DNA of 64,000 bases, taken from the NCBI GenBank assembly GCA_020773975.1, contig GCA_020773975.1_3638.1. The stretch is one strand, 5' to 3'. The notes under the pieces were generated by a model. That model was not told where the DNA came from. It worked only from the letters and a program-made list of their open reading frames with translations, and made no database searches. Below, piece after piece: positions 38,286 to 60,934 of this stretch (its first letter is position 1; each line of letters opens with the position of its first letter). The stretch comes from a phage. The translations under genes and the position numbers were made by a program.

Positions 38286-38340
38286 AAAAATTTTTTAAAA
38301 ATAGTATTGACAGCGGGGGTAGTATAGATCTACTATGTGC
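38286..38340 (+). promoter_or_regulatory. sigma70-like promoter with AT-rich UP element (copy 1 of a duplicated 27-bp module)
   Basis: AAAAATTTTTTAAAAATAGTATTGACA (38286-38312), then TACTAT at 38331-38336 (18-nt spacer). Confidence 0.5.
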
Positions 38341-38391
38341 ACATCAAGGCGATACACCGCCACCAACCAACCTAAAAAGGGGTGAATTAAT

Positions 38392-38739
38392 ATGAAAACC
38401 ATCGTTAACGCTGAGAATGTATCTTTTGATAAGTTGAGCGACGCACAAAAAGAAAAAGCCATTGATCTTATTCGTGAGCGTGAAAGAGAAAGTAATAATG
38501 ATTTCTTTGCTGATAGTGTCATTGAAGACTATAAGAATGACATTTTGCCAGAGTACGGGATCGATGACGCGGTTATCTATTGGTCAGGATTCTGGTCGCA
38601 AGGCGACGGCGCATCAATCAGCACTGACCGCGTGGATATTGAAAAATTTTTAAGAAAAGTTAAATCTTTAACAAAATTCAGAGGGATCCGCAAACTATTT
38701 GATATTGATGAAGATGGAAAAGTTTACGCTATCGCTTAA
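38392..38739 (+). CDS. hypothetical protein
   Basis: AGGGGTGA SD; 115 aa acidic. Confidence 0.55.
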   Translation: MKTIVNAENVSFDKLSDAQKEKAIDLIRERERESNNDFFADSVIEDYKNDILPEYGIDDAVIYWSGFWSQGDGASISTDRVDIEKFLRKVKSLTKFRGIRKLFDIDEDGKVYAIA

Positions 38740-42291: not shown

Positions 42292-42612
42292 ATGGAACAA
42301 GCTAATAAATTTTTCTTCCTGGCTGGGATCGTGGATAATGTGAAATGTGATTTCAAGCGTGAAAATGATAAGACGTTACTCACTTTCTGCGATATGCTTG
42401 ATCATGAGAATGCCGACAAGTTACGAATCGAGATCCGCACGATAACCAATATCGACAATTCAAGCCGTTTAATTTATAAATCTCATTCGATAGCTTACAG
42501 CTTGGAAACATCAACAAGCTGCATACAACAAGGTGAGAGCTTGCCCATTCTAAATAGTGCCGATGTATTTGGCGCGGTTGTTGCAATTGTAAATGATGTT
42601 TTTTCTCGTTGA
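42292..42612 (+). CDS. hypothetical protein
   Basis: AGAGAGG SD. Confidence 0.5.
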   Translation: MEQANKFFFLAGIVDNVKCDFKRENDKTLLTFCDMLDHENADKLRIEIRTITNIDNSSRLIYKSHSIAYSLETSTSCIQQGESLPILNSADVFGAVVAIVNDVFSR

Positions 42613-42729
42613 TTGGTGTTAATATTATGTTAGAGAATATCGTGTTTTGGTGTGGTGTCGTTATCGCTGTTATGGTTGGCATCCTGGCGACGATGGCGAA
42701 CATTGTGATCTCAAACAACCTGGCAGGGT

Positions 42730-42778
42730 AAAAATTTTTTAAAAATAGTATTGACATACTGGCGGCATATGGTATCAT
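42730..42778 (+). promoter_or_regulatory. sigma70-like promoter with AT-rich UP element (copy 2 of the duplicated 27-bp module)
   Basis: AAAAATTTTTTAAAAATAGTATTGACA (42730-42756), identical to 38286-38312, then TATCAT. Confidence 0.5.
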
Positions 42779-42910
42779 TTACCACATGAAGGGGCGAGAT
42801 TGACTTGCCTCACTAACGAAAGGTAAATAATGATGAACATTTCTAAAACTACTTTTAACTTTGCTAAAAAGCGTGGAATTTAGCTTGAGCTAGTCGAAGC
42901 AGATGATCGC

Positions 42911-47651: not shown

Positions 47652-48336
47652 GGCCCGTTGTGTTGTTGGTATGGGACACCCGACTTACCATTGACCAGGT
47701 AAACCAATATCAAGGCCAAATTCGTGACACTCATCCCAGTCAAGACTTTGATTCCAGTTTGTAACTGTCCTCTCTGTGTGGTGGGTGTATGATGCTCTCC
47801 GTGACTGCTTTGGCATCTTTTTTGTCTGAGATTTCCCGAAAAGAGGTGTGTTGTCATTGAGTCTTCCGGCAGCCTTTTCACCCTTTTTGACTTGTCTCCC
47901 ACGGGCATTCCACTGCTCCAGTGTCCTGTAACACATAAAATCATTCTCCTGTAATATCTGGTGTGGGGATAATGACAGATTGTACCAGAGGTGTCAAGTC
48001 TGTTGACCAGAGTGTGTGGGAGGGGTGTCGCTATAAAAAATTTTTGGAGAGCTTTCTATGGTTTATTCTGTAGCTTCAGACAGGCCATAAACCCAGATGT
48101 GACGGGGCTTTCAGCTATGTTGTGTGTTGATCGCAAATAAGGATAAAATAATCAATATAAATGCAGATAAATGTTGTTTTATTGTGTTTGTGTAACTGGG
48201 GTGTCATGTCTTGATAGGTTATGACCTGTACATATTTTGTACAGAAGTGTGGTGTGCAGAGTGGAGGTGGCAATTCCCCAGACGGGGGTGGGGGTAGGTC
48301 ATGGTGGAGAGCAGGGGCATGGTTAGCCCCATATGA

Positions 48337-48660
48337 TCAGGGTTGTGCGTCTGTTTGTTTGAACTGGTCTTTTGAACGTATTACATAACCACAACCATAT
48401 TTTCTCAGCCAGACCAGTTCCCATGGACTATCACTCAGGTTATTCCTGTTTATCTCTTTTAGCTGGGCAACCGCATCGTCCCATGATGTGACTTCGAGAT
48501 AACCGATAAGACTGTCCTCTCCAAAATCTCCATAATCAAATGTACATTTGACCTTGGCGATGAACTCTGTCTGTGGGTTTGTTGGTTTTACAAAAACCCA
48601 GTGGAAGATTTGTTCTGTGCAGTGCTCATTCACCCATCTGATTTGTGTGGTCATAATCAC
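48337..48660 (-). CDS. hypothetical protein
   Basis: 107-aa ORF. Confidence 0.5.
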   Translation of the reverse strand: MIMTTQIRWVNEHCTEQIFHWVFVKPTNPQTEFIAKVKCTFDYGDFGEDSLIGYLEVTSWDDAVAQLKEINRNNLSDSPWELVWLRKYGCGYVIRSKDQFKQTDAQP

Positions 48661-48663
48661 CTC

Positions 48664-49287
48664 TCATCGTATAATCTCGCCTCGAAAAACTGGCGCTTTC
48701 TCCTGGGGTTGCTTTGCCATGTAGTCTTTAATCCGATCATCAACCCATTTAATACGTTCTGGGTTGGTGTGACATTTATCATTGAGGCTTTCCAACCAGT
48801 AAGCCGCTTGGTCAGCGGTGAATGGAAAATTCAATGGGCGACCCGCAGCTACGAATTGTGCTTGCATCTCCCGAAGTAAGTTATCCCTTTCTCGCCATGA
48901 CCAGCGCCATTCTGCATAAGCCTTCAGATTGTTTTTCAGACCTGTCTGTTTTGAAAACTTATATCCTAGATATTCGTCAGGGTCATTAAGCCATTTCTGG
49001 TAAGCCGTGTAAAACTCATATAGTTTTTCACTTGAAACTTTTATCTTTGTTGTCTGCATTGGTGGCAGAGGCAGATATGCCCAGTGTGTTGGTTCACACA
49101 CAATACGTGTATCATCGTGGTAAGCATACTGGAATACACCTTGCCCAATATGAGCACCAACAAACATTTCTTTAGTGTCTGAACAAAACACCAACACATC
49201 TACAAAATCTGGTGGTAACTTATCGGAGCACATTACCCATGTATCTGTGTGATGGGTTTTTAATTCCGCAAAAAATTTATTGTTCAT
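48664..49287 (-). CDS. hypothetical protein (possibly DUF551-like N-terminal domain)
   Basis: ATG at 49287 preceded by AAGGGTG; motif PTHWAYLPLPP. Confidence 0.5.
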   Translation of the reverse strand: MNNKFFAELKTHHTDTWVMCSDKLPPDFVDVLVFCSDTKEMFVGAHIGQGVFQYAYHDDTRIVCEPTHWAYLPLPPMQTTKIKVSSEKLYEFYTAYQKWLNDPDEYLGYKFSKQTGLKNNLKAYAEWRWSWRERDNLLREMQAQFVAAGRPLNFPFTADQAAYWLESLNDKCHTNPERIKWVDDRIKDYMAKQPQEKAPVFRGEIIR

Positions 49288-49480
49288 ACTTACACCCTTA
49301 AAAATAAGGAAAACAGACAGGCGACCCCAGCAAATACACTGACACAACTTAGAAGAATACTCCACAATCTTTTCCAGCCTTTAACAGCAGCACTTTCCGA
49401 GAATCCGCAGAGTGCCAATATGAAATTGGAAATTCCAAGAAAGGCCAGTAGTAAATTTAATAGTATATCTATCATCGGCA

Positions 49481-49837
49481 TCACCCAAACCACATTACTA
49501 TCCCTAATACTACGAAAAGAAACCCAAGTAGGCAAAAGGAGGTTATTCTCTCTTTCTTTTTAAACTCTTTTGTTGGGTTGTAATTTTCCTGTTTTAATAC
49601 AAGGTTCTCATCATACCAAGTAATCCGTTGCCCGTTCAGGTTATGATACCGCTTATGAAGCTGCACAGCTTTTTTGGCAATATCTCCTGTTGGGTATGGG
49701 TTTGAGTACATGGCCTCGCCATCATCTGAAACTACTGTTTGGTTTATCGCATTACCATCGTAGTACACTTCCCAGCAGGATTTAGTTATAACCCCATCAA
49801 CCATGTCTTCTATGTGGTATATATTGTACTTGCTCAT
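49481..49837 (-). CDS. C-terminally membrane-anchored hypothetical protein
   Basis: C-terminal TM SFCLLGFLFVVLGIVMWFG. Confidence 0.45.
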   Translation of the reverse strand: MSKYNIYHIEDMVDGVITKSCWEVYYDGNAINQTVVSDDGEAMYSNPYPTGDIAKKAVQLHKRYHNLNGQRITWYDENLVLKQENYNPTKEFKKKERITSFCLLGFLFVVLGIVMWFG

Positions 49838-50205
49838 GCGTACTCTTTTATCTCCTGGATTGCATCTTTCGATAGCCAGCTATCAACAGGAATACTACTG
49901 AAATCTTTGTGCCACCGATGGGGCTTGTGCCCCTCCCTATGGTCAAGGGGGCATATATCCTCTGGCACTTTAAAATGAATGCCTTCGATATCGTAATAGT
50001 TTCCGTCTATAAGGGTATAGACGTGCCCTTGTATCCTGCTATAGCATATCTGTGCTTGTGGGAAAATGTGTTTAAGTACTAATGCCACTTGGTAGCACTT
50101 CCCATTCTGACCAATCCACACACTATCTACTTGTGGTGGGAAAATATCCCTGATTTTTCTTATCAGGGATGTTATATGGTTTTCTACACAACCTGCCATA
50201 CTCAT
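49834..50205 (-). CDS. hypothetical protein
   Basis: 123-aa ORF, overlapping stop/start. Confidence 0.5.
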   Translation of the reverse strand: MSMAGCVENHITSLIRKIRDIFPPQVDSVWIGQNGKCYQVALVLKHIFPQAQICYSRIQGHVYTLIDGNYYDIEGIHFKVPEDICPLDHREGHKPHRWHKDFSSIPVDSWLSKDAIQEIKEYA

Positions 50206-50477
50206 CGCCTTGCTTTTAGCAGTGCCTTGAAAAATTTTCTCGCTGCTTTTTCTGCCTGTCCTTTACGAGAAAACTCGTTCTCTCTGAATCTCCATTTTCC
50301 CGTATCTTCATCCTTCCAGACTTCTGCGTTAAGGAAATCAAGAATATTATCTGGAATCAATTCAATATCCTCATCTGTAAACCAATATTTTATAGCCCCG
50401 CTATAGACTTCCCGGAGGTACTCTCTACAGTCATTACCAGAAATCATACTTTTCCCTGATAGCTGCTCCCAGTCCAA
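50202..50477 (-). CDS. hypothetical protein
   Basis: 91-aa ORF. Confidence 0.45.
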   Translation of the reverse strand: MDWEQLSGKSMISGNDCREYLREVYSGAIKYWFTDEDIELIPDNILDFLNAEVWKDEDTGKWRFRENEFSRKGQAEKAARKFFKALLKARR

Positions 50478-50619
50478 TACCGATAACTAATAATATTGCC
50501 ACAGTGATCAACCAAAAGAGATAGGCATTGCCAAAAAAGGTTATTGGAAACACAACAATAAACAAAGCAAGCAGTACGACAGGAACCCCGATACACAAAT
50601 TCTTTAACACTTCCTTCAT
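50434..50619 (-). CDS. small membrane protein
   Basis: 61 aa, two TM helices. Confidence 0.35.
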   Translation of the reverse strand: MKEVLKNLCIGVPVVLLALFIVVFPITFFGNAYLFWLITVAILLVIGIGLGAAIREKYDFW

Positions 50620-50621
50620 AA

Positions 50622-50807
50622 TTACAAACTACCTTTTTTCTTTGGTAATGGCTTGAAACATGGGGGTAATTCACCACCTAACGACCAACGCAGCAGATTG
50701 TTATATCCAGGAAGTCTTTTTCTACCACCTTCTCCTTTATACACCCACGGAACATGCGTAGTTTCAAACTTTCTCTCACCTGTCTTTGATTCGTACAATA
50801 GCCACAT
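50622..50807 (-). CDS. hypothetical protein
   Basis: 61-aa ORF. Confidence 0.3.
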   Translation of the reverse strand: MWLLYESKTGERKFETTHVPWVYKGEGGRKRLPGYNNLLRWSLGGELPPCFKPLPKKKGSL

Positions 50808-51069
50808 ACCTAATGTGAGGGTTTCTGTGTCTGTCCAGTTTATCTGCTACTCAGATGTGCCTATTAATTCGAAATTGTCTTTTTCTTTCTTTTTCTTAAA
50901 CCATCCGAACATTATTCAATCCTCACTGATACATATCGCCATGTTCTTTTGTAGTATTCTACGGTTTCCACCAATTTGTCAAGAGGTACTCTTGTTTTCA
51001 ATATCCACCAGCTACCAAGATACTCTGTAGAACATGCACTCATCCTGCCACATATGGTATACGTTGCCA

Positions 51070-51270
51070 CTACATCCTCCACGTTAGTTTCTGAGCGATC
51101 TCTAACAAAGCATCTATCTTGTGTATATACTCTTTCCTTTTCTCACTGCCAGGAGGGAATTGGTCTCTCGTTTGCATCAAGGTTTTTATCTCTTCAGACA
51201 GATGATTAAGGATTTCAACGCGCTCACGTTTTCGACCTAGTTGTTCAATTTCTTTATCACTACAATTCAT
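51070..51270 (-). CDS. hypothetical protein
   Basis: 66-aa ORF. Confidence 0.4.
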   Translation of the reverse strand: MNCSDKEIEQLGRKRERVEILNHLSEEIKTLMQTRDQFPPGSEKRKEYIHKIDALLEIAQKLTWRM

Positions 51271-51283
51271 AACACACCCTACA

Positions 51284-51631
51284 GTGTTGTCAAACTATGA
51301 GAGTATGATAATATATGGTGCAACAACTTACAATAGCAGGAGACAATTTATGACTGTGAAAATACCTAAAGGCGGCAGACCAGATAGAAATGCATGTGAC
51401 ATGCGTGTAAGGGTAGGGAGAATGTGTCTAATTTATGGAATAACTTATCCACCAATGGTGCGACTTAATGGTAAAATATGTAAGGTCATCGACATACCAA
51501 AAGATAGAACAACACGCTTCTTGTGCAAGGTCAAAGGTGAAGAGAAGGTTTTTAACATCTCACACAAAAACCTAACAGTTTTGGATCTTAATGACAACAT
51601 TGTTATCTCCAAATACCGTTGTATAAACTAA
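51284..51631 (+). CDS. hypothetical protein (lone plus-strand ORF)
   Basis: Ends immediately before the bidirectional terminator; likely starts at the internal ATG (MTVKIPKGGRP...). Confidence 0.35.
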   Translation: MLSNYESMIIYGATTYNSRRQFMTVKIPKGGRPDRNACDMRVRVGRMCLIYGITYPPMVRLNGKICKVIDIPKDRTTRFLCKVKGEEKVFNISHKNLTVLDLNDNIVISKYRCIN

Positions 51632-51632
51632 A

Positions 51633-51665
51633 ATAAAAGCCCCGCATGGGGCTTTTATTTTTATT
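51633..51665. terminator. bidirectional rho-independent terminator
   Basis: AAATAAAAGCCCCGCATGGGGCTTTTATTTTTATT: GC stem flanked by an A-run and a T-run, between convergent ORFs. Confidence 0.7.
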
Positions 51666-52401
51666 CAAAATCATCAACACCGCTATCGGTAAGGTTTTCT
51701 CTGCTCGAAGGTTTTGTCGAAAGAACTTGCTCAAGCAGAGAGGAAAATTTCTGCAAATTACTTACAGAAGAAGTCCCTGCTGCCATGGCAAGCATATCCA
51801 CTTCTTTTTCGGTAGGTTGCGTCCAGTCTAGAAACATCTCTTTCATGTACAACGTTGATATCCCTATTGGTGTGGCGTGGTCAACCCTATCAGTACGGAC
51901 CCAGAAAAGAACTTCTTTCTCTATACATACACACAAAGCAGCACCCAACGAGTATCCTGTAACGATGGATGGATAACTTGCAACGAGGATCTCGACATTC
52001 AGGTCATCCCAGTGAAATACAACACCCAAACACTTCATATCCACAATGTCTTCCACTGCGGGTCTTAGCTCCTCATGGGAAGAAAGGGAGTCATAGTTAA
52101 TATTCTTTATGAATTTAAGAACGTCTTGGCGGTTGTAGGCACAATCGTTATTACCTTGCTTCCAGTAGCCCCAAAATGAAGTCGATAAATTCAACCAAAA
52201 ACTTGCAGTTGTCCCTAATGTCTCAGCCAGTTTTTCAGCCACATCTTCTGATACTTCTTCCATGTTATATAGGATAGTTCTTAACTTATTTACAGGTATA
52301 CCAGATCTGTCGGCAAGATCATCCACACACCAACCTAATGGATCCAGATATTCGTGGATAATAACCTCCCCTGGTGACACTGGTGCTCTTTCTTTCTGCA
52401 T
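51661..52401 (-). CDS. HigA/XRE-family HTH protein fused to a C-terminal domain of unknown function
   Basis: From ATG 52401 (AAGGAG SD): PGEVIIHEYLDPLGWCVDDLADRSGIPVNKLRTILYNMEEVSEDVAEKLAETLGTTASFWLNL matches the HigA antitoxin HTH pattern; about 170 further residues with no recognisable motif. Confidence 0.6.
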   Translation of the reverse strand: MQKERAPVSPGEVIIHEYLDPLGWCVDDLADRSGIPVNKLRTILYNMEEVSEDVAEKLAETLGTTASFWLNLSTSFWGYWKQGNNDCAYNRQDVLKFIKNINYDSLSSHEELRPAVEDIVDMKCLGVVFHWDDLNVEILVASYPSIVTGYSLGAALCVCIEKEVLFWVRTDRVDHATPIGISTLYMKEMFLDWTQPTEKEVDMLAMAAGTSSVSNLQKFSSLLEQVLSTKPSSRENLTDSGVDDFE

Positions 52402-52421
52402 TCTCTCTCCTTTCTCTCTAC

Positions 52422-52448
52422 CAGAAAACCCTGCAAAGCAGGGTTTTG
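52422..52448 (-). promoter_or_regulatory. hairpin just upstream of the HigA-like gene (terminator/attenuator-like)
   Basis: Minus strand AACCCTGC-TTTG-CAGGGTT followed by TTCTGG; sits between the upstream stop and the SD. Confidence 0.4.
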
Positions 52449-52454
52449 TTACTA

Positions 52455-52658
52455 TCAGCATTTAGGCGAGCATTTATCGCACGGGCATGAAATTCCGTGG
52501 AAACACAAACCTGTTCCGTCTTTCTTGACCCCTGTTCCACCACATTGGGGACAACTATCGTGTAAGCATTTTGTTTTTGTTGTCTCCTCTTTATCTTTAT
52601 TAAAGAGGTTTTTCATAATCATTTTCTGTTGCTCAATCGTAAACATTTTCGTCCCCAA
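52455..52658 (-). CDS. small Cys-rich (Zn-ribbon-like) protein
   Basis: CLHDSCPQCGG ... CFHGISCPCDKCSPKC. Confidence 0.45.
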   Translation of the reverse strand: MGTKMFTIEQQKMIMKNLFNKDKEETTKTKCLHDSCPQCGGTGVKKDGTGLCFHGISCPCDKCSPKC

Positions 52659-52827
52659 AATCTTTCAAGTGCTTCTACCTCTCCCATGTTTGGGAAGATA
52701 CCACAGAGACTTTTATAGCCTCTTTAATACTTTTATCCCACTGATGCGCCATTTACAGGCTTTTAAGTACCCACTACTATTGTAAAAGCCTACTCTCCGA
52801 AAGATACTGGTGAGGAACTTTTTATTT

Positions 52828-53133
52828 TTACGAATAATCTTCTTTTTCACTCAAAAACCTCGTTTCTTCAAACTGCTCTGGTGTCAATAAACTTGTTCCT
52901 ACACGACTGCCATTACCACACATAATGGGCACGGCAATCATGTGGCTATCCTTTTCTGCATTAGCTGTATCAAGGTACTGCCCATAACGTTTGATAAGTC
53001 GGATACTCATTTTTGAATTAGCTAAAGCCCTTGTATTATAGAGATAATCCTCAATGTACAAACGCAATGCGTTTGCGGATTTTAAGGATTTCGATAAGAA
53101 TAATTTATTACGCCGTACCAGTTTTTTCTTCAT
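52828..53133 (-). CDS. hypothetical protein
   Basis: 101-aa ORF. Confidence 0.45.
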   Translation of the reverse strand: MKKKLVRRNKLFLSKSLKSANALRLYIEDYLYNTRALANSKMSIRLIKRYGQYLDTANAEKDSHMIAVPIMCGNGSRVGTSLLTPEQFEETRFLSEKEDYS

Positions 53134-53326
53134 GCAACCCTCGCTTGTGCCTGTACATTGCTAGGGGCCATACAGAACTCACTATAAAGCATTTCCATGC
53201 CCAACCCCATGCAGTTTTTGGTGCATATACCTGCTCAAGTATTTTACTATTCTCCATCTCTGCGGTATGTACAAACCATACAGCAATATACAATGTAACT
53301 ATAATGTAGATAAAGCCATTAATCAT
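53108..53326 (-). CDS. small membrane protein
   Basis: 72 aa, two hydrophobic segments. Confidence 0.35.
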   Translation of the reverse strand: MINGFIYIIVTLYIAVWFVHTAEMENSKILEQVYAPKTAWGWAWKCFIVSSVWPLAMYRHKRGLHEEKTGTA

Positions 53327-54380
53327 TCATCTTATCCCAACACATTTGTTGTGCTGTCATCAAAACATCGGCAGCAAAGTTAAGATCTGTTGTTTTCGGT
53401 AAATGCGTGTTCTTGTACAGAGTGTTACGAATATAATCATCCTTCTCTTCTGCCCAAGCCAAGAGCTTCTCCAAAGACCATGCGCCATTCCTGATTGCAA
53501 GAAGCTCCTGAGCATCAGGTCTTTTTACTAAGACTTTCCCTTCCGTCAGGATTTCTTCCGCTTGACGCATCAGCCTAACCAAGTGCATACCATGCTTTGA
53601 ATCGAAGCCATACTTTTCTTCTAACTCATGACGTGCTGGGTTTCTGTTTTCAACCCATGTCCAGTAGTTCTTATGCTTTTCCTTTGCTTGTTTATGCTCA
53701 TCTGCCAGATATTTAACGATTAAAATTGGCTTACGTTTCTTATCTTCGTCAGAGAACTGCTCGTATGGAACTTTACGAATAGAACCATCAGAGTTAAACA
53801 AACCAGCATTGTCGCGTGTTCCGATTACACCATAGATATTATCACCCATGGGTAAAAAGACACACAACTTGTTAAGATCATCCAACATTTTCTGGAAGTC
53901 TTTGTGTTTTGTAAGATTATCATCCATCCACGAGTGTGTCAAGCGCATGAACTCTTTTTGTGTTGGTTGCTCTTTAGGCTGCGGGTTATTAATCCATTTA
54001 TTATGGCCTTTGATACGCTTCAGTTGCGCCATCGCATACCCAGAAAAAGTAAAAGCAACTTTACTGGATAGGAGTTTTGGCGCTTGCTCGCGTAGGTACT
54101 CGTAAACATCTGAAGTTTGCAGAATGTCACTTCTATCAACAAACATAAGCTCGATGATGTTTGGGTTCATATCAACGAACAACTTCATGTAGTTTGTTAG
54201 CTCATACAGCTTACCATCCTCTTCATCAATAAGAGTCATTTCTCTGTCAACGAAAAACGGGGTAAGAATGCTTTTAGGCTCTGCACAATAAATTCCGCGA
54301 ATATCCACATCGGATGTTGGTAAGTTAGTTCCATAGGCAATGCTACCACTGTAGCAGCGCATTAGTTCTAGTTTCTTCAT
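53319..54380 (-). CDS. nucleotidyltransferase-fold protein (Pol-beta-like NTase superfamily)
   Basis: GSIAYGTNLPTSDVDIRGIY = GS...G...SDxD signature of the minimal nucleotidyltransferase fold; 353 aa. Confidence 0.55.
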   Translation of the reverse strand: MKKLELMRCYSGSIAYGTNLPTSDVDIRGIYCAEPKSILTPFFVDREMTLIDEEDGKLYELTNYMKLFVDMNPNIIELMFVDRSDILQTSDVYEYLREQAPKLLSSKVAFTFSGYAMAQLKRIKGHNKWINNPQPKEQPTQKEFMRLTHSWMDDNLTKHKDFQKMLDDLNKLCVFLPMGDNIYGVIGTRDNAGLFNSDGSIRKVPYEQFSDEDKKRKPILIVKYLADEHKQAKEKHKNYWTWVENRNPARHELEEKYGFDSKHGMHLVRLMRQAEEILTEGKVLVKRPDAQELLAIRNGAWSLEKLLAWAEEKDDYIRNTLYKNTHLPKTTDLNFAADVLMTAQQMCWDKMND

Positions 54381-54757
54381 TCTTGTACCTTTGTGCTTTT
54401 TCTTACATTATCCCAAAAATCAAGGATATTTTGGTAACGGATTTTGTCTTCCATATATTCAGCTTCATCCCGAAGATCGCACACATGTTCTATTAAGGCA
54501 CACACTTCATTGTGGTATGTTGTATCACTTGTGATGTGCTTAATCATACAAGATCCTGCTTTCCACTTTGAAAGTGAGTATCTCAGATTATCATCTTTCT
54601 CTGTTGGAAAAGCATCAACTAGCACCTTTGCCCTATTCCCTTGTATCGTTTGTATTGTTCCTTGGCGCAACTCGTTTCCACCCCAATAGATAAACACAGT
54701 ATCACCAACAAATAATCTAGTTCCACTTGCGTCTCTCATTTTATGCCTCCAACCCAA
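54377..54757 (-). CDS. hypothetical protein
   Basis: 126-aa ORF, ATGA overlap with the downstream gene. Confidence 0.45.
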   Translation of the reverse strand: MGWRHKMRDASGTRLFVGDTVFIYWGGNELRQGTIQTIQGNRAKVLVDAFPTEKDDNLRYSLSKWKAGSCMIKHITSDTTYHNEVCALIEHVCDLRDEAEYMEDKIRYQNILDFWDNVRKSTKVQE

Positions 54758-55085
54758 AGAAATAATAAATTGTTACCGCTGCAAAGTAAAGTGTTTTGGA
54801 AATCAGCCGTAACCAACAATCTCTGTTTGTATACACTTTTCCTGCTAAGATATTACTACCTGTTACGATATGTCCCCACACCCACACACCAAACAGGAAT
54901 CCTCCTAGCAAACCCCCTGTTGGTGGTGTTAATGTGGTAATCATTGCAATACCTTCTAGGATGGTGAATATGAAGAAATATGAGAATGCCTCTCTTACAC
55001 ATTTTATTCCTTTGCCAGTAACGCAGGTATTGACTAAACCTATAAGACAAAAGATCGTCCAAAGTACATACAATGTATAAACCAT
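54741..55085 (-). CDS. integral membrane protein
   Basis: Four predicted TM helices. Confidence 0.45.
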   Translation of the reverse strand: MVYTLYVLWTIFCLIGLVNTCVTGKGIKCVREAFSYFFIFTILEGIAMITTLTPPTGGLLGGFLFGVWVWGHIVTGSNILAGKVYTNRDCWLRLISKTLYFAAVTIYYFFGLEA

Positions 55086-55150
55086 AAACCACTTAACCCC
55101 GAGAATGTTAACCTCTCCAACCCTATCAGAGAGGTTTCAGAAATGATCTG

Positions 55151-55561
55151 TTACTCACCTTTCAGCTTAAAACTTTTCAATGTTTTGATAAAGTTTTTCT
55201 CTGCTGGTGTGTAAGTGTGAACGAAACCTGTTTCTTCACAGGTGTAGGTATCATTAACCTCCATTGCGTGTGGAGGGATAAATGCACCATCAGGAACAGA
55301 CTTATATTCCGGGTTGTAGATAAATTCCGGCAGTACAACAGCTACAGCAGTCATTGCTCCGTTCAAGGCTTTCTTTTCTTCACGCCACCACGCTACTGGG
55401 TAAGTCTCTAAAGACATTGCCTGGGTAAGAAAATCTTCAAGCACGGACTGATAACCGCCATTCAAAACAATAATGGTCTTATCTTCTTCTTTCCAGCATT
55501 TCAGCCAATGGTGTGCAGTGATCTGCTCTGGTGTATATGCTTCACCACTATGCAAAACCAT
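55151..55561 (-). CDS. hypothetical protein, possibly PTH2 (peptidyl-tRNA hydrolase 2)-like; 5' end uncertain
   Basis: The 27 in-frame codons upstream of the ATG encode ...YISGIHAGIQSAHAIAEL (cf. the PTH2 motif GK.AAQC.HAA) with no ATG/GTG/TTG; downstream WLKCWKEEDKTIIVLN also recalls PTH2; weak. Confidence 0.4.
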   Translation of the reverse strand: MVLHSGEAYTPEQITAHHWLKCWKEEDKTIIVLNGGYQSVLEDFLTQAMSLETYPVAWWREEKKALNGAMTAVAVVLPEFIYNPEYKSVPDGAFIPPHAMEVNDTYTCEETGFVHTYTPAEKNFIKTLKSFKLKGE

Positions 55562-55639
55562 AAGCTCTGCAATGGCGTGTGCTGATTGGATACCCGCATG
55601 GATACCGGAGATATATTGATTAACAATACATTCTTGTTT

Positions 55640-55858
55640 TCATTTTTGTTTTTTCCTCAGAATTATTCTATCTTCACTAAAAATTTCCTGTAACCCAGCA
55701 GCAATCAGAGCAAATATTGCTACCCACCATACAACTAACAGGAGTGCCCCAACAAGCAAATCTCTACCTGTGATCTGTTGCTCAATCCTGTAGGTAAAAA
55801 TAAAGAAAGCTACGGATACTAAAGCACCAACAAAGAAGTAGATAAACACTTCAGTCAT
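55640..55858 (-). CDS. small membrane protein
   Basis: 72 aa, two TM helices; in frame with 55151-55561 across a single TGA. Confidence 0.4.
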   Translation of the reverse strand: MTEVFIYFFVGALVSVAFFIFTYRIEQQITGRDLLVGALLLVVWWVAIFALIAAGLQEIFSEDRIILRKKQK

Positions 55859-56186
55859 TATCTCTTTTCTCCAAATCCCGTTTCTCCAAGTATCCTTTTA
55901 CCATAAGTGCTACAGCGTAAATCCCCACAAGACAAATACAAAATGTGAAAATAATAGGTAAAACCATTACCGCAAACATCATAAATAGCGGTCCTGCAAC
56001 AGTAATGAATGCTTCTCCAAGCAACAGCAAAAATACTACATATTTATTTGCCGTCTCATCCACCTTCTTAAGATACACACCTAAACACACAGAAGACAAC
56101 AGGAATGACAGAATGGACAGCAATAGATACCAATTATCAATAAAGATGATAATTGGACCAGCAACATTTTCTAACCACCACATCAT
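55851..56186 (-). CDS. integral membrane protein
   Basis: 111 aa, three TM helices. Confidence 0.45.
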   Translation of the reverse strand: MMWWLENVAGPIIIFIDNWYLLLSILSFLLSSVCLGVYLKKVDETANKYVVFLLLLGEAFITVAGPLFMMFAVMVLPIIFTFCICLVGIYAVALMVKGYLEKRDLEKRDND

Positions 56187-56200
56187 ATATACTTACCTCT

Positions 56201-57445
56201 TTAGAATAACATATCTCTGCTGATTGCTTTACGAATAGCATCAATACGGGCTACTCGCACAGCTTCACCAATCTCTTTACCCTTCTTACCCTTTTCCAGA
56301 AGGGGTTTTGTTATAGCTTTAGAATCAACTTTTGTCATAGCGTCGTAGGCTTCCAACAAAAAATGACCTTGAAGATAAGGTTTATGTCTAAAATCACCAC
56401 CTCTTCCTTTAGCATCACAATAACACGCATCTGCAAGTGTGTAAACCTTCATTTTCTGGTCAGCTTGTCCAGCAGCTTCAAATATTTTCATGATGCTTTT
56501 TGGTTTCAAACCGTTGTTACCATCTCTGGGAGAGATGGTGTGCACTTTTGTGTGATTTTCTGCAACATATTTTGCCGTGTCACGATAGATATTATAAATC
56601 TTCAACCTTTCACACAAGGATTGGATAACATCTACCCCAGCTTTCTCATGACCATGAAGATTACCATTGTCCTTGTAAGTTATAGCTTTGCCAAAATCAT
56701 GGCACAGCACAGCAAACTTGGTCAGTGGATCAGCTTCTAATTCATCAGCAACCCGTAACGCTAGAATTGTATGGGTGTAAGCATCCCCCTCTGGGTGATG
56801 TTCTTTAGGTTGTTGCACACGACGTAGGGCTTCCAGTTCAGGAAGTTCGCCAATACGTCCCATATTGACAGCAAAAGACCTGAAATAACCACTCTTTAAG
56901 GCTTTCAACATTTCCTTCCATTTACGATAGGCGCTTATTTCTGCCAAAGAGTGTCGGTTGTCATAAGCCAGTTTAAAAGTTTCTGGATGGATATGCCATT
57001 CTTCCCCAAGCTGGGCTTTAAATCTAAACAGGCGTAGAATACGTAATGGATCTTCAATAAACGCCTCCGATGTATGACGTAATGTTTTAAGTCCTAAGTC
57101 AACCTGACCACCAAAAGGATCAATAATCTCACCACTGTCAACATCCATCGCCATGGAGTTGATGGTAAGATCTCTACGTGCCAAATCCTCTTCCAGAGTT
57201 ACATCTGGACTAAAGCATACCTCAAATCCTTTATGGCCTTCGCCTGTTTTTCTTTCTGTGCGTGCAAGAGCGTACTCTTCTTTTGTTTCTGGGTGAAGAT
57301 AAACTGGAAAAGATGCGCCAACTTGTGTGAACCCTCTTTTCAGCATCTCTTCATGCGTAGCACCAACAACCACATAATCACGGTCTGATATTTCACGACC
57401 TAACAATTTATCTCTTACTGCGCCACCTACCAAGTATACCTTCAT
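56201..57445 (-). CDS. cca: tRNA nucleotidyltransferase (CCA-adding enzyme) with HD domain
   Basis: From ATG 57445: MKVYLVGGAVRDKLLG...DRDYVVVG (class II CCA motif, cf. E. coli Cca MKIYLVGGAVRD as recalled), RRDLTINSMA, HD motif VLCHDFGK; about 415 aa. Confidence 0.8.
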   Translation of the reverse strand: MKVYLVGGAVRDKLLGREISDRDYVVVGATHEEMLKRGFTQVGASFPVYLHPETKEEYALARTERKTGEGHKGFEVCFSPDVTLEEDLARRDLTINSMAMDVDSGEIIDPFGGQVDLGLKTLRHTSEAFIEDPLRILRLFRFKAQLGEEWHIHPETFKLAYDNRHSLAEISAYRKWKEMLKALKSGYFRSFAVNMGRIGELPELEALRRVQQPKEHHPEGDAYTHTILALRVADELEADPLTKFAVLCHDFGKAITYKDNGNLHGHEKAGVDVIQSLCERLKIYNIYRDTAKYVAENHTKVHTISPRDGNNGLKPKSIMKIFEAAGQADQKMKVYTLADACYCDAKGRGGDFRHKPYLQGHFLLEAYDAMTKVDSKAITKPLLEKGKKGKEIGEAVRVARIDAIRKAISRDMLF

Positions 57446-57768
57446 TTCTTCGCCCACGTATTCATATAATTAACAATATCTTTTACGGTTCTCTTTCCGT
57501 CCAGTGGATAAACCATGTCATCGCTCATCCCACCGTGTTTTAGCATTGCTACCAGTCTAGTATATACCTCTTTTGGTCTTTTGCAAGTTCTTTTCTTCCA
57601 TTTATGACCGTCTGGGAAGTACTCCTTATCTTCAAGAGAGATATGAAGGATGTCCCCTATAAACTCTTTAGCCTGTGTGCTGTAAAGTGGACGGTGGAAT
57701 ATGTAGAATTTCATTGCTTGCTCCTTTGTTGTAATAACAATATCAGTGCAAGCCACCTGTGTCAACAC
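57442..57768 (-). CDS. hypothetical protein
   Basis: ATGA overlap with cca. Confidence 0.4.
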   Translation of the reverse strand: MLTQVACTDIVITTKEQAMKFYIFHRPLYSTQAKEFIGDILHISLEDKEYFPDGHKWKKRTCKRPKEVYTRLVAMLKHGGMSDDMVYPLDGKRTVKDIVNYMNTWAKK

Positions 57769-57803
57769 ATAAAGAAAAACCCGCTAAAAAGCGGGTTAAT
57801 CTC

Positions 57804-58085
57804 TTACCATGTTACAAATATGTTTATAGATGTGCCTTGTTTTGTTGGTCGATAGCTAATAATATCTACCGTGAAGCCACCACCACGAAGATCGCCAACA
57901 ATATGAGGCAGGTAATCACCCATTTCCTCCGGGAACTGTAGTGACATACCCATTCCAAATAGACCTTTCTTTGCACATTGGCTGATCCCGTTTACTATCT
58001 GGTCGTACAGTTCCACCAGAGATTTTGGGGTATCCTTTTTCGACTTGTTCGCTATCTCTCTCATTTTGCTGGCGACATTTGCCAT
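57804..58085 (-). CDS. hypothetical protein
   Basis: 93-aa ORF; overlaps the 3' 170 nt of the MTase ORF in another frame. Confidence 0.35.
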   Translation of the reverse strand: MANVASKMREIANKSKKDTPKSLVELYDQIVNGISQCAKKGLFGMGMSLQFPEEMGDYLPHIVGDLRGGGFTVDIISYRPTKQGTSINIFVTW

Positions 58086-58596
58086 CTTTACCTCTTAAAA
58101 AATAGAAAGGCTTCAAATTAAGGGTGTTCTTTTTGTCCCACACATACCATGCATACCCGCTCCCATCGGTTTTACCATCCTCTGTAAAAGATGGTCTTTG
58201 AGAAAGTACAAGCAGAGATGTTGGGGGATTATCTTGCCACCACTCCCACCTTTTCATACTTTCAAGAAAACCAAGACGTAGAAGCATGATAACGACATCA
58301 GCATCACGTAGAGCTTTCTCAACAAATTCTTGAGCCAGTGAGTATGGGGGGTTAGAGATTATGATGTCTGTGTGATTATACTCTGTTGTCAGATAATCAA
58401 CACCTTGACGTATTTCTCCCCAAGCACTTCCAATAGGTAGAAAATTGTAGATCCTACCAGAAGCCCTGCAAGGCTCCATATATTTCTTTTTCATATCTAT
58501 AGGGATAACTTCCAACAGGGCTTCAACAGCCCACACTGGTGTTTCATATGTGTCGTATTCTCTTCGCTCACCCTTCTTTTTCAGCGGAGCTGCCAT
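57916..58596 (-). CDS. DNA N6-adenine methyltransferase
   Basis: Motif I-like EPCRASGRI and motif IV DIIISNPPY; first ATG at 58596; the low-complexity C-terminal tail past about 58085 may not be real. Confidence 0.6.
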   Translation of the reverse strand: MAAPLKKKGERREYDTYETPVWAVEALLEVIPIDMKKKYMEPCRASGRIYNFLPIGSAWGEIRQGVDYLTTEYNHTDIIISNPPYSLAQEFVEKALRDADVVIMLLRLGFLESMKRWEWWQDNPPTSLLVLSQRPSFTEDGKTDGSGYAWYVWDKKNTLNLKPFYFLRGKDGKCRQQNERDSEQVEKGYPKISGGTVRPDSKRDQPMCKERSIWNGYVTTVPGGNG

Positions 58597-59522
58597 CAAT
58601 TACCAACCTTTTCGACAGTTTCTTTCAGAATACCTTCGGAAACACTAAGAATTTGATTCAATAGAATATCTCTTTTGTGTGGTATTACTCTAGTTTCATT
58701 CTCCCCATATTGCAGATTGTTTAGTTGTGCAAGAATTTCTTTTAACTCGTCAACATTAAAACCATCAAAATCACGTTCGTTCAGAGTTGACATATTGAAA
58801 CTAAAATTCTCACCACCAACCGAGATGTTCATAAGCATTTCTTGCACCTCACCTTTAGGAACAGCACCTATGTTTTGTGGTGTGACATTCTTGACCACTG
58901 TTGTTTTTGTGGTTTTGGGGCCAGTTACATACCGCAACCCTTGCTGTTCTCTTCGGATATTCTCTTTATCCAGTAAAGCTGCGTCTGTGCGTACCAAAAT
59001 ATCTTCTTCTGTCAGCCACACTTCCCCACCACCTTTAATGGTTTCCATTTCTTCAGGTGTCAGTACATCTTTATAGAAATGGTCGAAGACACGATCAAAG
59101 TAGTCTTTTTGGAACACAGCCTGACGATAGATATTGGAACCATCACCACCTATCCAACCCTGATAATTATGGAACATAAAAATTGTCAGTGGTGAAACAG
59201 TTCGACGCTCACATGCCAACCATAATACTGTCCCTGCTGAACACACTTGGCCTTCTGCATGAACAATAACCATGGCCTGACTTTCTCGGATAGCACTAAC
59301 GTATGCCATTGCTATGGCAACATCACCACCCAATGTGTTTATAATAATTCTTACTGTGTCCTCTGGATTGGCTGCACGAATTGTTTGTAACCGCTCTTGG
59401 TGGTCTTCCAACCAATGCATCTCGTTAACATATATGACATGATTATTGGCATGAGCACGATATGTAAAAACATTAGCAGTCTCTACACGGTTAACATTAA
59501 AACCGTTATTCAGTTTTTGCAT
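58596..59522 (-). CDS. ClpP-family serine peptidase with C-terminal extension
   Basis: IIINTLGGDVAIAMAYVSAIRES and VHAEGQVCSAGTVLWLA (ClpP active-site Ser region), His in TIFMFHN; about 130 extra C-terminal residues. Confidence 0.6.
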   Translation of the reverse strand: MQKLNNGFNVNRVETANVFTYRAHANNHVIYVNEMHWLEDHQERLQTIRAANPEDTVRIIINTLGGDVAIAMAYVSAIRESQAMVIVHAEGQVCSAGTVLWLACERRTVSPLTIFMFHNYQGWIGGDGSNIYRQAVFQKDYFDRVFDHFYKDVLTPEEMETIKGGGEVWLTEEDILVRTDAALLDKENIRREQQGLRYVTGPKTTKTTVVKNVTPQNIGAVPKGEVQEMLMNISVGGENFSFNMSTLNERDFDGFNVDELKEILAQLNNLQYGENETRVIPHKRDILLNQILSVSEGILKETVEKVGN

Positions 59523-60003
59523 CACAACCCTCTCCGTTTTTAATGAGAATATCTCTCAAAATATGGCTATTACTCAAAAGCCAATCTATATTTATGCCAC
59601 ACTCTTCATCAACAATAACTTTATCACTATATCTAGAGCATCGAAGGACTCTCTTGGCATACTCAGCCGCTATCGTTGCTTGGTGTATGATTGTAAATTT
59701 GTCAAGATCATCTTTAGTAAGACAAATGAACTTAGATTTACCATTCATACAGATGAGATGCTCTAGCAACTCAATTCTGTTAGAGAACATCAATTCGGCA
59801 TCCTTCTTAGCAGCACTTTCAGAATAAAACATACTAGCTAAGAAGCCTTTATTAACAATTCTTAAAGAATTAGCTACTGTGGTCATATATCTAGTATAAA
59901 GCTCAGTAGCCATCTCTTCGAACACGTCAGGCTCTACAACACCGCAATTCTGTAACTTTACCAAGGTATCGTTTGTTAAGACACTGTAGACAGTACTTTT
60001 CAT
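59506..60003 (-). CDS. hypothetical protein
   Basis: 165-aa ORF. Confidence 0.45.
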   Translation of the reverse strand: MKSTVYSVLTNDTLVKLQNCGVVEPDVFEEMATELYTRYMTTVANSLRIVNKGFLASMFYSESAAKKDAELMFSNRIELLEHLICMNGKSKFICLTKDDLDKFTIIHQATIAAEYAKRVLRCSRYSDKVIVDEECGINIDWLLSNSHILRDILIKNGEGCDAKTE

Positions 60004-60009
60004 TGTCCC

Positions 60010-60318
60010 CTACCTAGCAATTAGATATCGTATCTTTCCGTCATCTTCCTGATACCCAACATCCACAACATAGTATTCTCCAACATCAGGAATCAACAAC
60101 TTATCCCCAACCTCGTACTCTTTTGGGGTATGGTATACCATTGATTCTGTAAAATATTTGTACTTATCCGTATCGTTAATGTTGCATGAAATTTCCATTT
60201 CTCCGTTGTTGTTGGGTATGAGAATATCCTCACCATTCTTTTTCCCAACCACATAACCACCTACCAATGTTTTAACTAAGCACAGTGTTTTATTGAGTTT
60301 GTCTTGGAACTTTGGCAA
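60010..60318 (-). CDS. hypothetical protein
   Basis: 102-aa ORF. Confidence 0.45.
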   Translation of the reverse strand: MPKFQDKLNKTLCLVKTLVGGYVVGKKNGEDILIPNNNGEMEISCNINDTDKYKYFTESMVYHTPKEYEVGDKLLIPDVGEYYVVDVGYQEDDGKIRYLIAR

Positions 60319-60934
60319 AAGAATCCTCCATTTTGTCCAGGAATGTTTCCAGGATTTTTATTCTTTCTGGTGTGTTAAGATTAAGAGTTTTAATCCCTTT
60401 CATTTTAGCCAGATTGACAGCAGTGGCTGTACCTCCTTTCGGGTTTCCGTTCTTATCTTCTTTTGCAAAGTAAAGCACAAAGGAAGATGGTTTTGGGTTG
60501 TTAATATCCACTCCCAACACTTGATGCACATTCCTGGAATGTAAAGCAAATGCTGCTCTGTTTCTCAGTAATGCTTGTGGGTTGGGATGCACCTTTTGCA
60601 CCAATTCATCTCGGTGCTCTATTTGTTCGGTATACAGATGGTTAATATATTGTAAGCCATAATCCCAGTTATCGTACAAATCCGCTTCTTTATCACCAAA
60701 ACCTTTCCATGGTATGTAAATTTCTGCGAGTCTGTTACCATACAACATTTTTGTTTTATCGTCAAGGCTATCGAAATATCGCTGCATCCCTCTCTGGAAC
60801 GCCGTATCAGCCCCTTCTGCCTTGCCACTCCGCAATGTAAACCCTAAACCAGCCAACCGGAAAGCAGCGTCCTCCATGACGCTGATAACCTCTGGGGGTG
60901 TTTCACGGGAACCCACCCCAGTATAATAACGCAT
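60290..60934 (-). CDS. DprA/SLOG-family Rossmann-fold protein
   Basis: YTGVGSRETPPEV ... LRSGKAEGADTAFQRG resembles the DprA/Smf motif GSR...SGxAxGxD. Confidence 0.45.
   Translation of the reverse strand: MRYYTGVGSRETPPEVISVMEDAAFRLAGLGFTLRSGKAEGADTAFQRGMQRYFDSLDDKTKMLYGNRLAEIYIPWKGFGDKEADLYDNWDYGLQYINHLYTEQIEHRDELVQKVHPNPQALLRNRAAFALHSRNVHQVLGVDINNPKPSSFVLYFAKEDKNGNPKGGTATAVNLAKMKGIKTLNLNTPERIKILETFLDKMEDSFAKVPRQTQ

What the first reader, a model, noticed from the sequence alone, without database searches (positions are those of the whole stretch)
55151..55858. PTH2-like ORF lacks a canonical start and is in frame with the upstream membrane ORF across a single TGA
ORF 55640-55858 (two TM helices) ends with TGA at 55640-55642; the next 26 codons in the same frame (KQECIVNQYISGIHAGIQSAHAIAEL) contain the best-conserved-looking motif of the downstream ORF but no ATG, GTG or TTG before the annotated ATG at 55561. 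Possibilities: initiation at ATT or ATC, stop-codon readthrough or recoding yielding a membrane-anchored PTH2-like protein (eukaryotic PTH2 is membrane-anchored), a sequencing error, or coincidence.
Basis: inference. Interest (0 to 1): 0.45.

Follow-up and report, generated by a model that had tools for sequence, protein, structure and literature searches.

The report
Frameshifted phage PTH2-like gene (5-bp deletion)
The "missing start codon" is caused by a 5-base deletion near the start of a conserved phage gene, which cuts its normal ATG off from the rest of the reading frame; this is an ordinary broken gene, not a recoding signal.

Summary
On the minus strand, the 72-aa two-TM ORF ends at TGA 55642-55640. 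The next 26 in-frame codons carry the family's best-conserved motif and contain no ATG, GTG or TTG before ATG 55561.

The cause is mundane. All relatives start this gene at the ATG of the ATGA stop/start overlap (window 55643), as MKTRMYC[I/V]VNQYI.GIHAGIQSAHA. Eight close sequences were checked at the DNA level, 90 homologues at the protein level, and two other Vequintavirinae genera by annotation. The close relatives read ATGTATTGTATTGTTAA; the window reads ATGTATTGTTAA. One copy of a tandem 5-mer is lost.

This leaves a 7-codon stub (MKTRMYC*). It shifts residues 7-165 by +1, which happens to be the frame of the upstream ORF. Putting the 5 bp back restores a 165-aa protein that is 96-98% identical to its closest relatives.

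In relatives the two ORFs are always in different frames, and no homologue has a membrane anchor. Readthrough, frameshifting and non-AUG initiation therefore have no comparative support.

A second public assembly (Logan, SRR16760863) is 100% identical over 13 kb, deletion included. Assembly error is therefore unlikely.

The parts
55640..55858 (-). Upstream 72-aa membrane ORF with two hydrophobic helices; stop codon TGA at 55642-55640
   Evidence: sequence and translation; hydropathy; PHROG 14512, E 5e-18. The same 72-aa ORF sits directly upstream in Av-05, TH18, L003-L008, KpS8 and PVP-SE1.
55654..55658 (-). Shine-Dalgarno-like GAGGA upstream of the native start ATG 55643
   Evidence: duplex with the anti-SD sequence is -6.1 kcal/mol, comparable to -6.4 for the upstream ORF's own start. 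All in-frame near-cognate candidates score -3.0 or weaker.
55640..55643 (-). ATGA stop/start overlap. ATG 55643-55641 is the native start codon of the PTH2-like gene and is used as the annotated start in relatives.
   Evidence: In Av-05 the CDSs are 1928-2146 and 2143-2640 of L001 (4-nt overlap). TH18, L003-L008 and PVP-SE1 are arranged the same way.
55620..55643 (-). Residual 7-codon ORF MKTRMYC followed by TAA: the native N-terminus, cut short by the frameshift
   Evidence: frame 2 translation. MKTRMYC is the N-terminus of the relatives' proteins.
55623..55629 (-). Deletion junction. The window has a single GTATTGT where close relatives have GTATTGTATTGT, so one 5-bp unit of a tandem repeat is missing. 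The exact breakpoint within the repeat cannot be assigned.
   Evidence: Eight relatives read ATGTATTGT[A/G]TTGTTAA; the window reads ATGTATTGTTAA. Re-inserting ATTGT restores a 498-nt, 165-codon ORF.
55151..55639 (-). Body of the PTH2-like gene: 162 open codons plus the stop. From TGT 55630 it encodes native residues C7-E165. It is now in the frame of the upstream ORF and has no start codon of its own until 55561.
   Evidence: PHROG 3668 'hydrolase' matches at E 9e-30 for the 136-aa part and 4e-49 for the intact relative.
55574..55606 (-). Conserved motif GIHAGIQSAHA. It corresponds to the GKGK.AAQ.AHA motif of Pth2 enzymes and is stranded upstream of the first canonical start.
   Evidence: G19, I20, Q21 and H24 are invariant; G15, I16, H17, A18 and A23 are conserved at 90% or more. 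(hhalign pairs IQSAHA with AQVAHA of S. solfataricus Pth2, E 2e-4).
55151..55561 (-). Longest ORF with a canonical start: 136 aa, 15.5 kDa, beginning at native residue M30. It lacks strand β1 and nearly all of helix α1.
   Evidence: ORF list; model elements: E3-10, H16-32; masses. The public gene call on the identical Logan contig is 134 aa, starting 6 nt further in.
56201..57445 (-). Context: CCA-adding tRNA nucleotidyltransferase, 414 aa, two genes upstream in the same gene string
   Evidence: PF01743 PolyA_pol plus HD domain; annotated as tRNA nucleotidyltransferase in Av-05 and TH18.
53319..54380 (-). Context: RlaP-family nucleotidyltransferase, 353 aa, downstream in the same gene string
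   Evidence: PF10127 RlaP.

Best explanation
The window comes from an Avunavirus-like E. coli phage of the Vequintavirinae. Its PTH2-fold 'hydrolase' gene (PHROG 3668) carries a 5-bp deletion at codons 6-8.

In the intact gene, a 72-aa membrane-protein ORF ends in TGA and overlaps the hydrolase start as ATGA. This is a typical translational-coupling junction, preceded by a GAGGA. The hydrolase begins MKTRMYCIVNQYISGIHAGIQSAHA. Codons 6-9 contain a perfect tandem repeat, (G)TATTG-TATTG(T).

Loss of one unit, most simply by replication slippage, makes the ATG frame run into TAA after 7 codons. It also moves residues 7-165 into the +1 frame, which happens to be the frame of the upstream ORF. The 'in-frame across a single TGA' arrangement and the 'start-less conserved motif' are therefore by-products of a frameshift mutation, not a recoding device.

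Shown here: the deletion, its absence from all relatives examined, the conservation of the N-terminus, the PTH2 fold, and the reproduction of the deletion in a second assembly.

Inferred: the slippage mechanism, and the functional outcome. The most likely outcome is loss of function. The only canonical restart is ATG 55561, with a weak SD. It would give a 136-aa, 15.5-kDa fragment without β1, α1 or the conserved active-site-like motif.
For: - Deletion: Av-05, TH18 and six ENA/Logan/NCBI contigs all have ATGTATTGT[A/G]TTGTTAA where the window has ATGTATTGTTAA.
- Repair: re-inserting ATTGT gives a 165-aa ORF with 4-7 aa differences from the closest relatives and only two window-private substitutions, so there is no further decay.
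- Ancestral state: 88 of 90 homologues carry the motif, and in 85 of them it starts 10-17 residues from their own N-terminus. The distant genera Mydovirus and Seunavirus have the same membrane-ORF/hydrolase pair, with overlapping stop and start codons in different frames.
- The N-terminal 29 residues hold 7 of 16 invariant columns. They form β1 (residues 3-10) and α1 (16-32) of a high-confidence model with pLDDT 94.4.
- Not an assembly artefact: Logan contig SRR16760863_62 is 100% identical to window 47319-60380, including the deletion.
- Within about 5 kb, the only non-multiple-of-3 indel shared against all relatives and lying inside a conserved CDS is this one.
- A neighbouring accessory gene, 2.9 kb downstream, is also broken by a 1-bp and an 88-bp deletion, which fits real gene decay in this region.
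Against: - No read-level data were available. The Logan contig may derive from the same read set as the window, so a systematic read error or a mixed population cannot be formally excluded.
- The gene body shows no secondary decay. This fits a very recent mutation but equally fits an error.
- Loss of function is inferred, not shown. Low-level rescue is possible by UGA readthrough (26.8-kDa fusion), AUU 55627 initiation (17.8 kDa) or reinitiation at AUG 55561.
- The slippage origin is inferred only from the tandem-repeat context.
Confidence: 0.85

Rival explanations
1. Sequencing or assembly artefact: the real genome has both ATTGT copies and an intact 165-aa gene.
For: The gene body is otherwise intact and 96-98% identical to relatives. 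The deletion allele is absent from the viral, genome and metagenome contig collections. Short tandem repeats can be contracted by some long-read platforms (general knowledge).
Against: An independent public assembly of run SRR16760863 has exactly the same sequence over 13,062 bp. A 5-bp loss is not a typical homopolymer-type error. The surrounding 5 kb shows no scatter of frameshifting indels in conserved genes. A nearby 88-bp deletion in another gene, also reproduced in the Logan contig, cannot be a base-calling error.
Confidence: 0.07
2. Functional rescue without a canonical start. An active, nearly full-length protein would still be made by initiation at AUU 55627 (158 aa, 17.8 kDa), or a shortened one by termination-reinitiation after the 7-codon stub.
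For: Frame 0 encodes native residues C7-E165 without interruption. AUU 55627 lies 5 nt upstream of the stub's TAA, so terminating ribosomes are delivered next to it (sequence). The gene body shows no decay.
Against: No SD precedes any in-frame ATT or ATC: duplex energies range from -0.7 to +1.9 kcal/mol, apart from a -3.0 site before ATC 55591. AUU initiation is normally discriminated against by IF3 (general knowledge). The product would lack near-invariant R4 and invariant Y6, and would have a truncated β1. There is no comparative support, because the allele is unique.
Confidence: 0.05
3. Stop-codon readthrough or recoding at TGA 55642-55640 produces a membrane-anchored PTH2-like fusion (235 aa, 26.8 kDa).
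For: The two ORFs are in frame across a single UGA followed by A. UGA is the leakiest stop codon in E. coli, and human PTH2/Bit1 has an N-terminal membrane anchor (both general knowledge). Some incidental fusion product is therefore plausible.
Against: The in-frame arrangement exists only in this allele. In Av-05, TH18, L003-L008, KpS8 and PVP-SE1 the hydrolase has its own ATG and lies in a different frame from the membrane ORF. None of the 90 homologues has a TM segment. The arrangement is fully explained by the 5-bp deletion.
Confidence: 0.03

Closest known systems
Vequintavirinae 'hydrolase' family PHROG 3668 (e.g. Av-05 Av05_0065 / YP_009111139.1; PVP-SE1 gp162; KpS8 gp183)
   Same: It is the same gene in the same place. 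After repair it is 96-98% identical to its closest relatives. The gene order is shared: CCA-adding enzyme, small membrane ORFs, hydrolase, DUF7205, RlaP nucleotidyltransferase.
   Different: The window copy has lost 5 bp at codons 6-8. It therefore has no continuous ORF from the native ATG, whereas all other copies examined are intact at 148-166 aa.
Archaeal/eukaryotic peptidyl-tRNA hydrolase 2 (Pth2, Pfam PF01981; PDB 1wn2, 1xty, 2zv3, 3erj, human Bit1 1q7s)
   Different: The sequence match is below Pfam's cut-off (19.1 bits against 23), and a profile search of PDB sequences finds nothing. There is a roughly 55-residue C-terminal extension. By alignment register, the Lys of GKGK, reported as catalytic in S. 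solfataricus Pth2 (my recollection of Fromant et al. 2005, not checked here), is a near-invariant His in this family. No activity has been tested.
Slipped-strand frameshift mutations at short tandem repeats (ordinary pseudogenisation; phase-variable contingency loci as the functional extreme)
   Same: Exactly one unit of a perfect tandem 5-mer is lost, producing a frameshift near the 5' end of a gene.
   Different: The repeat had only two units, and one remains, so reversion by slippage is no longer possible. Only one lineage carries the contracted allele. It does not behave as a switch.
Programmed stop-codon readthrough (e.g. the Qβ coat/A1 UGA readthrough)
   Same: A UGA separates two in-frame coding segments in a coliphage.
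   Different: The arrangement is not conserved in any relative. The downstream segment has its own conserved start codon and SD in all relatives, and here the arrangement results from a deletion.

Membership tests
Pth2 / PF01981 | Score at or above Pfam's gathering threshold (23 bits) | tested here: not met
   19.1 bits (E 0.0016) for the intact Av-05 protein and 13.7 bits for the window's 136-aa ORF.
Pth2 / PF01981 | Pth2 α/β fold: four-stranded sheet with four helices in a core of about 115-120 aa (PMC11202043) | tested here: met
Pth2 / PF01981 | N-terminal GKGK-AAQ-AHA motif including the Lys reported as catalytic (K18 in S. solfataricus; from memory of Fromant et al. 2005) | tested here: inconclusive
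   hhalign (E 2e-4, probability 46%) pairs IQSAHA with AQVAHA. Extending the register places near-invariant H17 opposite K18. The Q and H of the motif are kept but the Lys is not.
Pth2 / PF01981 | Acidic residue equivalent to Asp86, and peptidyl-tRNA hydrolase activity | not testable with these tools
   The profile alignment stops before this region, and there is no residue-level structural superposition or assay. Invariant E90 is a candidate only.
PHROG 3668 phage 'hydrolase' | Significant full-length profile match | tested here: met
   E 4e-49 over profile positions 1-151 for the intact relative. The window's 136-aa ORF matches only profile positions 36-151 (E 9e-30).
PHROG 3668 phage 'hydrolase' | Continuous ORF from its own ATG (MKTRMYC...) overlapping the stop of the upstream membrane ORF | tested here: not met
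   The ATG 55643 frame stops after 7 codons because of the 5-bp deletion.
Programmed stop-codon readthrough | In-frame arrangement across the stop codon conserved among relatives | tested here: not met
   In 10 relatives from three genera the two ORFs are in different frames, with a 4-nt or 1-nt overlap.
Programmed ribosomal frameshifting | Two-frame organisation and slippery site conserved among relatives | tested here: not met
   Relatives encode the protein in one continuous frame. At the stub's end (UGU UAA), tRNA-Cys has no good +1 re-pairing codon (inference from the sequence).
Non-canonical (AUU/AUC) initiation | Near-cognate codon with a suitably spaced Shine-Dalgarno sequence, conserved in relatives | tested here: not met
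   no SD precedes ATT 55627, ATC 55612, ATC 55603 or ATT 55573. Relatives use the ATG.
Phase-variable contingency locus | Multi-unit repeat tract with both ON and OFF lengths seen among isolates | tested here: not met
   The tract has only two units in relatives and one here. The contracted allele was found nowhere else.

The most novel reading that the evidence does not exclude
The frameshifted allele is not dead. Natural leakiness of the UGA-A stop, or reinitiation next to the 7-codon stub, might yield a low level of a membrane-tethered (26.8 kDa) or N-terminally trimmed (17.8 kDa) PTH2-fold enzyme that the phage tolerates or exploits. That would be a one-step evolutionary route from a soluble to a membrane-anchored PTH2, echoing the anchored eukaryotic enzyme.
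Probability: 0.04. Interest if true: 0.4.

Novelty: already known. Interest (0 to 1): 0.1.

Why it matters
It matters mainly for annotation. The locus should be recorded as a frameshifted, probably inactive copy of the Vequintavirinae PTH2-fold hydrolase. It should not be recorded as a 136-aa protein, nor as a recoding or non-AUG initiation case.

It also illustrates a trap. A small deletion next to an ATGA overlap can place a gene body in frame with its upstream neighbour and so mimic readthrough.

A viable phage that carries this lesion suggests the PTH2-like gene is dispensable under the conditions in which the phage was propagated. That would be mildly useful to anyone studying the tRNA-related accessory module of these phages (CCA-adding enzyme, PTH2-like hydrolase, RlaP nucleotidyltransferase).

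Tried and rejected
- **Single-base homopolymer error.** My first idea from the raw sequence was an extra A in ATGAAAACAAG. Alignment with relatives shows that stretch is identical and the difference is a 5-bp loss further in.
- **Exact look-up of the 136-aa product.** Nothing was on record. This turned out to be because the public gene call on the identical contig starts 2 codons later, giving 134 aa.
- **Scans for the deletion allele.** There were no hits in viral, genome or metagenome contigs. A control scan for the intact allele in viral contigs found only Av-05, so those collections sample this clade poorly and the negative result is weak.
- **Profile search of PDB sequences.** It found no Pth2 hit, so only the fold comparison and hhalign made the link.
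- **Screen for split genes in the window using TH18 ORFs.** 28 of 34 matched ORFs were intact. The six flagged cases were mostly partial matches, and two matched the window in two frames; none was followed up. The screen cannot detect lesions in the first 10% of a gene; it missed this one.
- **Literature.** No paper on this family in Vequintavirinae turned up. Powers et al. 2005 (PMC2253226) is not held, so the identity of the Pth2 catalytic residues rests on my memory.
- **+1 programmed frameshifting at UGU-UAA.** Rejected: there is no re-pairing potential and no conservation.
- **Phase variation.** Rejected: the repeat has only two units.

Full report
**1. The observation**

All coordinates refer to the minus strand. 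ORF 55858..55640 encodes a 72-aa protein and ends with TGA at 55642-55640. It has two hydrophobic segments and matches PHROG 14512 'membrane protein' at E 5e-18.

The same frame stays open for 26 more codons, KQECIVNQYISGIHAGIQSAHAIAEL, before ATG 55561. In that frame there is no ATG, GTG or TTG, only ATT and ATC codons.

On numbers alone it is unremarkable. With this composition, 26 sense codons lack a canonical start about 23% of the time, and a shared frame has a 1 in 3 chance.

The TGA is part of an ATGA, and its ATG (55643-55641) opens a 7-codon ORF, MKTRMYC, that ends at TAA 55622-55620.

**2. What relatives show**

Megablast against phage genomes finds Escherichia phage Av-05 (Avunavirus, Vequintavirinae; 94% identity) and four TH18-like phages (88%).

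In Av-05 the 72-aa membrane gene (L001 1928-2146) overlaps a 165-aa 'hydrolase' gene (2143-2640) by the four bases ATGA. TH18 has the same layout. Their proteins begin MKTRMYC[I/V]VNQYI.GIHAGIQSAHAIAEL. This is the window's 7-codon stub followed by the window's 'start-less' motif.

DNA alignment gives the reason. Av-05 reads ATGTATTGTATTGTTAAC and the window reads ATGTATTGTTAAT. Six further contigs from ENA, Logan and NCBI assemblies are about 95% identical to the window and encode protein P0001. All carry ATGTATTGTATTGTTAA. The window therefore lacks one unit of a perfect tandem 5-mer, (G)TATTG-TATTG(T).

Against these relatives, this 5-bp gap is the only non-multiple-of-3 indel within about 5 kb that is shared against all of them and lies inside a conserved CDS. 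Re-inserting ATTGT restores a 498-nt ORF. Its 165-aa product differs from the closest relatives (Av-05 and the six P0001-encoding contigs) at only 4-7 positions, with two window-private substitutions.

**3. Why the frames coincide**

The native ATG frame starts one base ahead of the upstream ORF's frame, which is the ATGA overlap. Removing 5 bases moves the gene body one base forward relative to the ATG frame. It therefore lands exactly in the upstream ORF's frame.

Because the lost unit belonged to a tandem repeat, the surviving copy still reads C-I-V in the new frame. Frame 0 therefore encodes native residues C7-E165 without a break. The striking 'in frame across a single TGA' is an arithmetic by-product of the deletion.

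**4. The intact form is ancestral and universal**

- tblastn finds the gene in 190 phage records. In 103 of them the match covers at least 80% of the protein, and every one of the 60 records listed matches residues 1-165. The hosts include Escherichia, Klebsiella, Salmonella, Cronobacter and others.
- Of 90 homologues from the 5.8-billion-protein collection, 88 carry the motif G[IL][HQ].GIQ. In 85 of these it starts 10-17 residues from the protein's own N-terminus.
- Only three homologues have longer N-terminal extensions (23-39 aa), and none is hydrophobic. No homologue contains a TM-like segment.
- In Klebsiella phage KpS8 (Mydovirus) and Salmonella phage PVP-SE1 (Seunavirus), the two-TM membrane gene again sits directly upstream. 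Its stop overlaps the hydrolase start by 1 or 4 nt, and the two genes are in different frames.

So nothing supports conserved readthrough, frameshifting or a membrane-anchored form.

**5. What the protein is**

- Pfam gives only a sub-threshold PTH2 hit (PF01981, 19.1 bits against a cut-off of 23).
- PHROGs places it in family 3668, 'hydrolase' (E 4e-49).
- A profile search of PDB sequences finds nothing.
- An AlphaFold2 model of the 95%-identical relative P0001, built with a 64-sequence alignment, is confident (pLDDT 94.4, pTM 0.89).
- The first eleven Foldseek hits are archaeal Pth2 enzymes and human Bit1.
- hhalign of the family against five PDB Pth2 sequences pairs IQSAHA with AQVAHA (E 2e-4).

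By register, near-invariant His17 sits opposite the Lys of the GKGK motif. I recall that Lys being reported as catalytic in S. solfataricus Pth2 (Fromant et al. 2005), but I could not check this here.

The family also has a roughly 55-residue C-terminal extension. 'PTH2-like' is therefore right at the fold level. Strict family membership and enzymatic activity remain unproven.

PTH2 genes have been noted in jumbo phages among RNA-repair functions (PMC7824862). Here the gene lies two genes downstream of a CCA-adding enzyme and upstream of an RlaP nucleotidyltransferase. The window itself contains no tRNA genes.

**6. Consequence of the lesion**

The stretch cut off from a start codon (residues 7-29) plus the stub contains 7 of the family's 16 invariant columns: Y6, N10, Y12, G19, I20, Q21 and H24. 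It forms strand β1 (residues 3-10) and helix α1 (16-32) of the model.

The first canonical start in frame is ATG 55561, native M30. It has only a weak SD-like match (-2.1 kcal/mol, against -6.1 for the native GAGGA upstream of ATG 55643). Its 136-aa, 15.5-kDa product would lack one of the four core strands and the motif. I infer that it is inactive.

No in-frame ATT or ATC has an SD. Incidental UGA readthrough would give a 26.8-kDa fusion, and AUU 55627 initiation would give a 17.8-kDa protein. Both are conceivable at trace level, but neither has support.

**7. Real mutation or error?**

The exact 72-aa, 414-aa and 353-aa neighbouring proteins are on record on a single contig, Logan assembly SRR16760863_62 (21.8 kb). 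That contig is 100% identical to window 47319-60380 (13,062 bp, no gaps), including the 5-bp deletion.

Two assembly pipelines therefore agree, which argues against an assembly or polishing artefact. The reads may be the same set, however, so this is not independent biological confirmation. The deletion allele was not found in the viral, genome or metagenome contig collections. Those collections contain little of this clade.

The same contig and the window share a second lesion 2.9 kb downstream. The homologue of a 106-aa ORF (Av05_0059; L005 5800-6120) has a 1-bp deletion and an 88-bp deletion, leaving a 45-aa ORF at 52713-52850. An 88-bp loss is not a base-calling error. This fits genuine erosion of accessory genes in this phage lineage.

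**8. Verdict**

The recoding and non-canonical-start readings are not supported.

The best explanation is a recent 5-bp slippage deletion that frameshifts a conserved phage gene (confidence 0.85). The rivals are:

- a read-level artefact (0.07);
- residual function via non-AUG initiation or reinitiation (0.05);
- a functional readthrough fusion (0.03).

This is an ordinary broken gene of a known, already annotated phage family, so interest is low (0.1).

Noticed in passing
window 52560-52860 (minus strand); ORF 52713-52850: A second broken gene lies 2.9 kb downstream in the same gene string. It is the homologue of a 106-aa hypothetical protein (Av05_0059; L005 5800-6120). It carries a 1-bp deletion near 52747 and an 88-bp deletion at 52710/52711 relative to Av-05, L005 and L008, leaving a 45-aa ORF. 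It also has several non-synonymous changes. The lesion is reproduced in the Logan contig.
   Followed up: partly
window 47319-60380: This stretch is 100% identical, with no gaps, to Logan contig SRR16760863_62 (21,760 bp). That contig is probably the same phage or sample as the window's source. No record in the INPHARED phage collection is closer than about 94% identity (Av-05).
   Followed up: partly
window 53319-54380 (minus strand) compared with L003, L004, L006 and L007 at about 4270-6370: The RlaP-family nucleotidyltransferase is 353 aa in the window, Av-05, L005 and L008. It is called as 699 aa in four otherwise closely related metagenomic contigs. This could be a fusion, an insertion or an intein-like element. 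The alignments of those loci to the window stop at about 53600.
   Followed up: no
window 54741-55085 (minus strand): This 114-aa ORF has a strong PHROG 16835 'membrane protein' match (E 1e-49) and is annotated in Av-05. It is not called as a gene in the public gene calls of any related contig (L003-L008, L015), which leave a gap there.
   Followed up: no
family alignment A2; window 55574-55606: In this phage PTH2-fold family, the position that lines up by register with the Lys of the Pth2 GKGK motif is a near-invariant His, within GIHAGIQSAHA. The family also has a roughly 55-aa C-terminal extension. The chemistry or the substrate may therefore differ from canonical Pth2.
   Followed up: partly
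window 1-64000: ARAGORN finds no tRNA genes anywhere in the window, even though it encodes a CCA-adding enzyme and a PTH2-like protein.
   Followed up: no
window 30685-38703 compared with NC_025830 (L009, L010): The Av-05 record is not collinear with the window. Window 30685-33502 matches Av-05 100000-102824, while the adjoining window 33477-38703 matches Av-05 13595-18775. Window 1-30684 had no alignment of 400 bp or more to the Av-05 parts fetched. The Av-05 record also annotates its large terminase in several pieces, so the reference may be rearranged or imperfectly assembled.
   Followed up: no
window 33900-34460 and 42490-42800: TH18 ORFs match the window in two different frames at these two places. 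Av-05 also differs from the window by paired 1-bp indels near 34066 and 34161. These could be compensating frameshifts or non-coding stretches. The TH18 ORFs involved are not the annotated CDSs.
   Followed up: no
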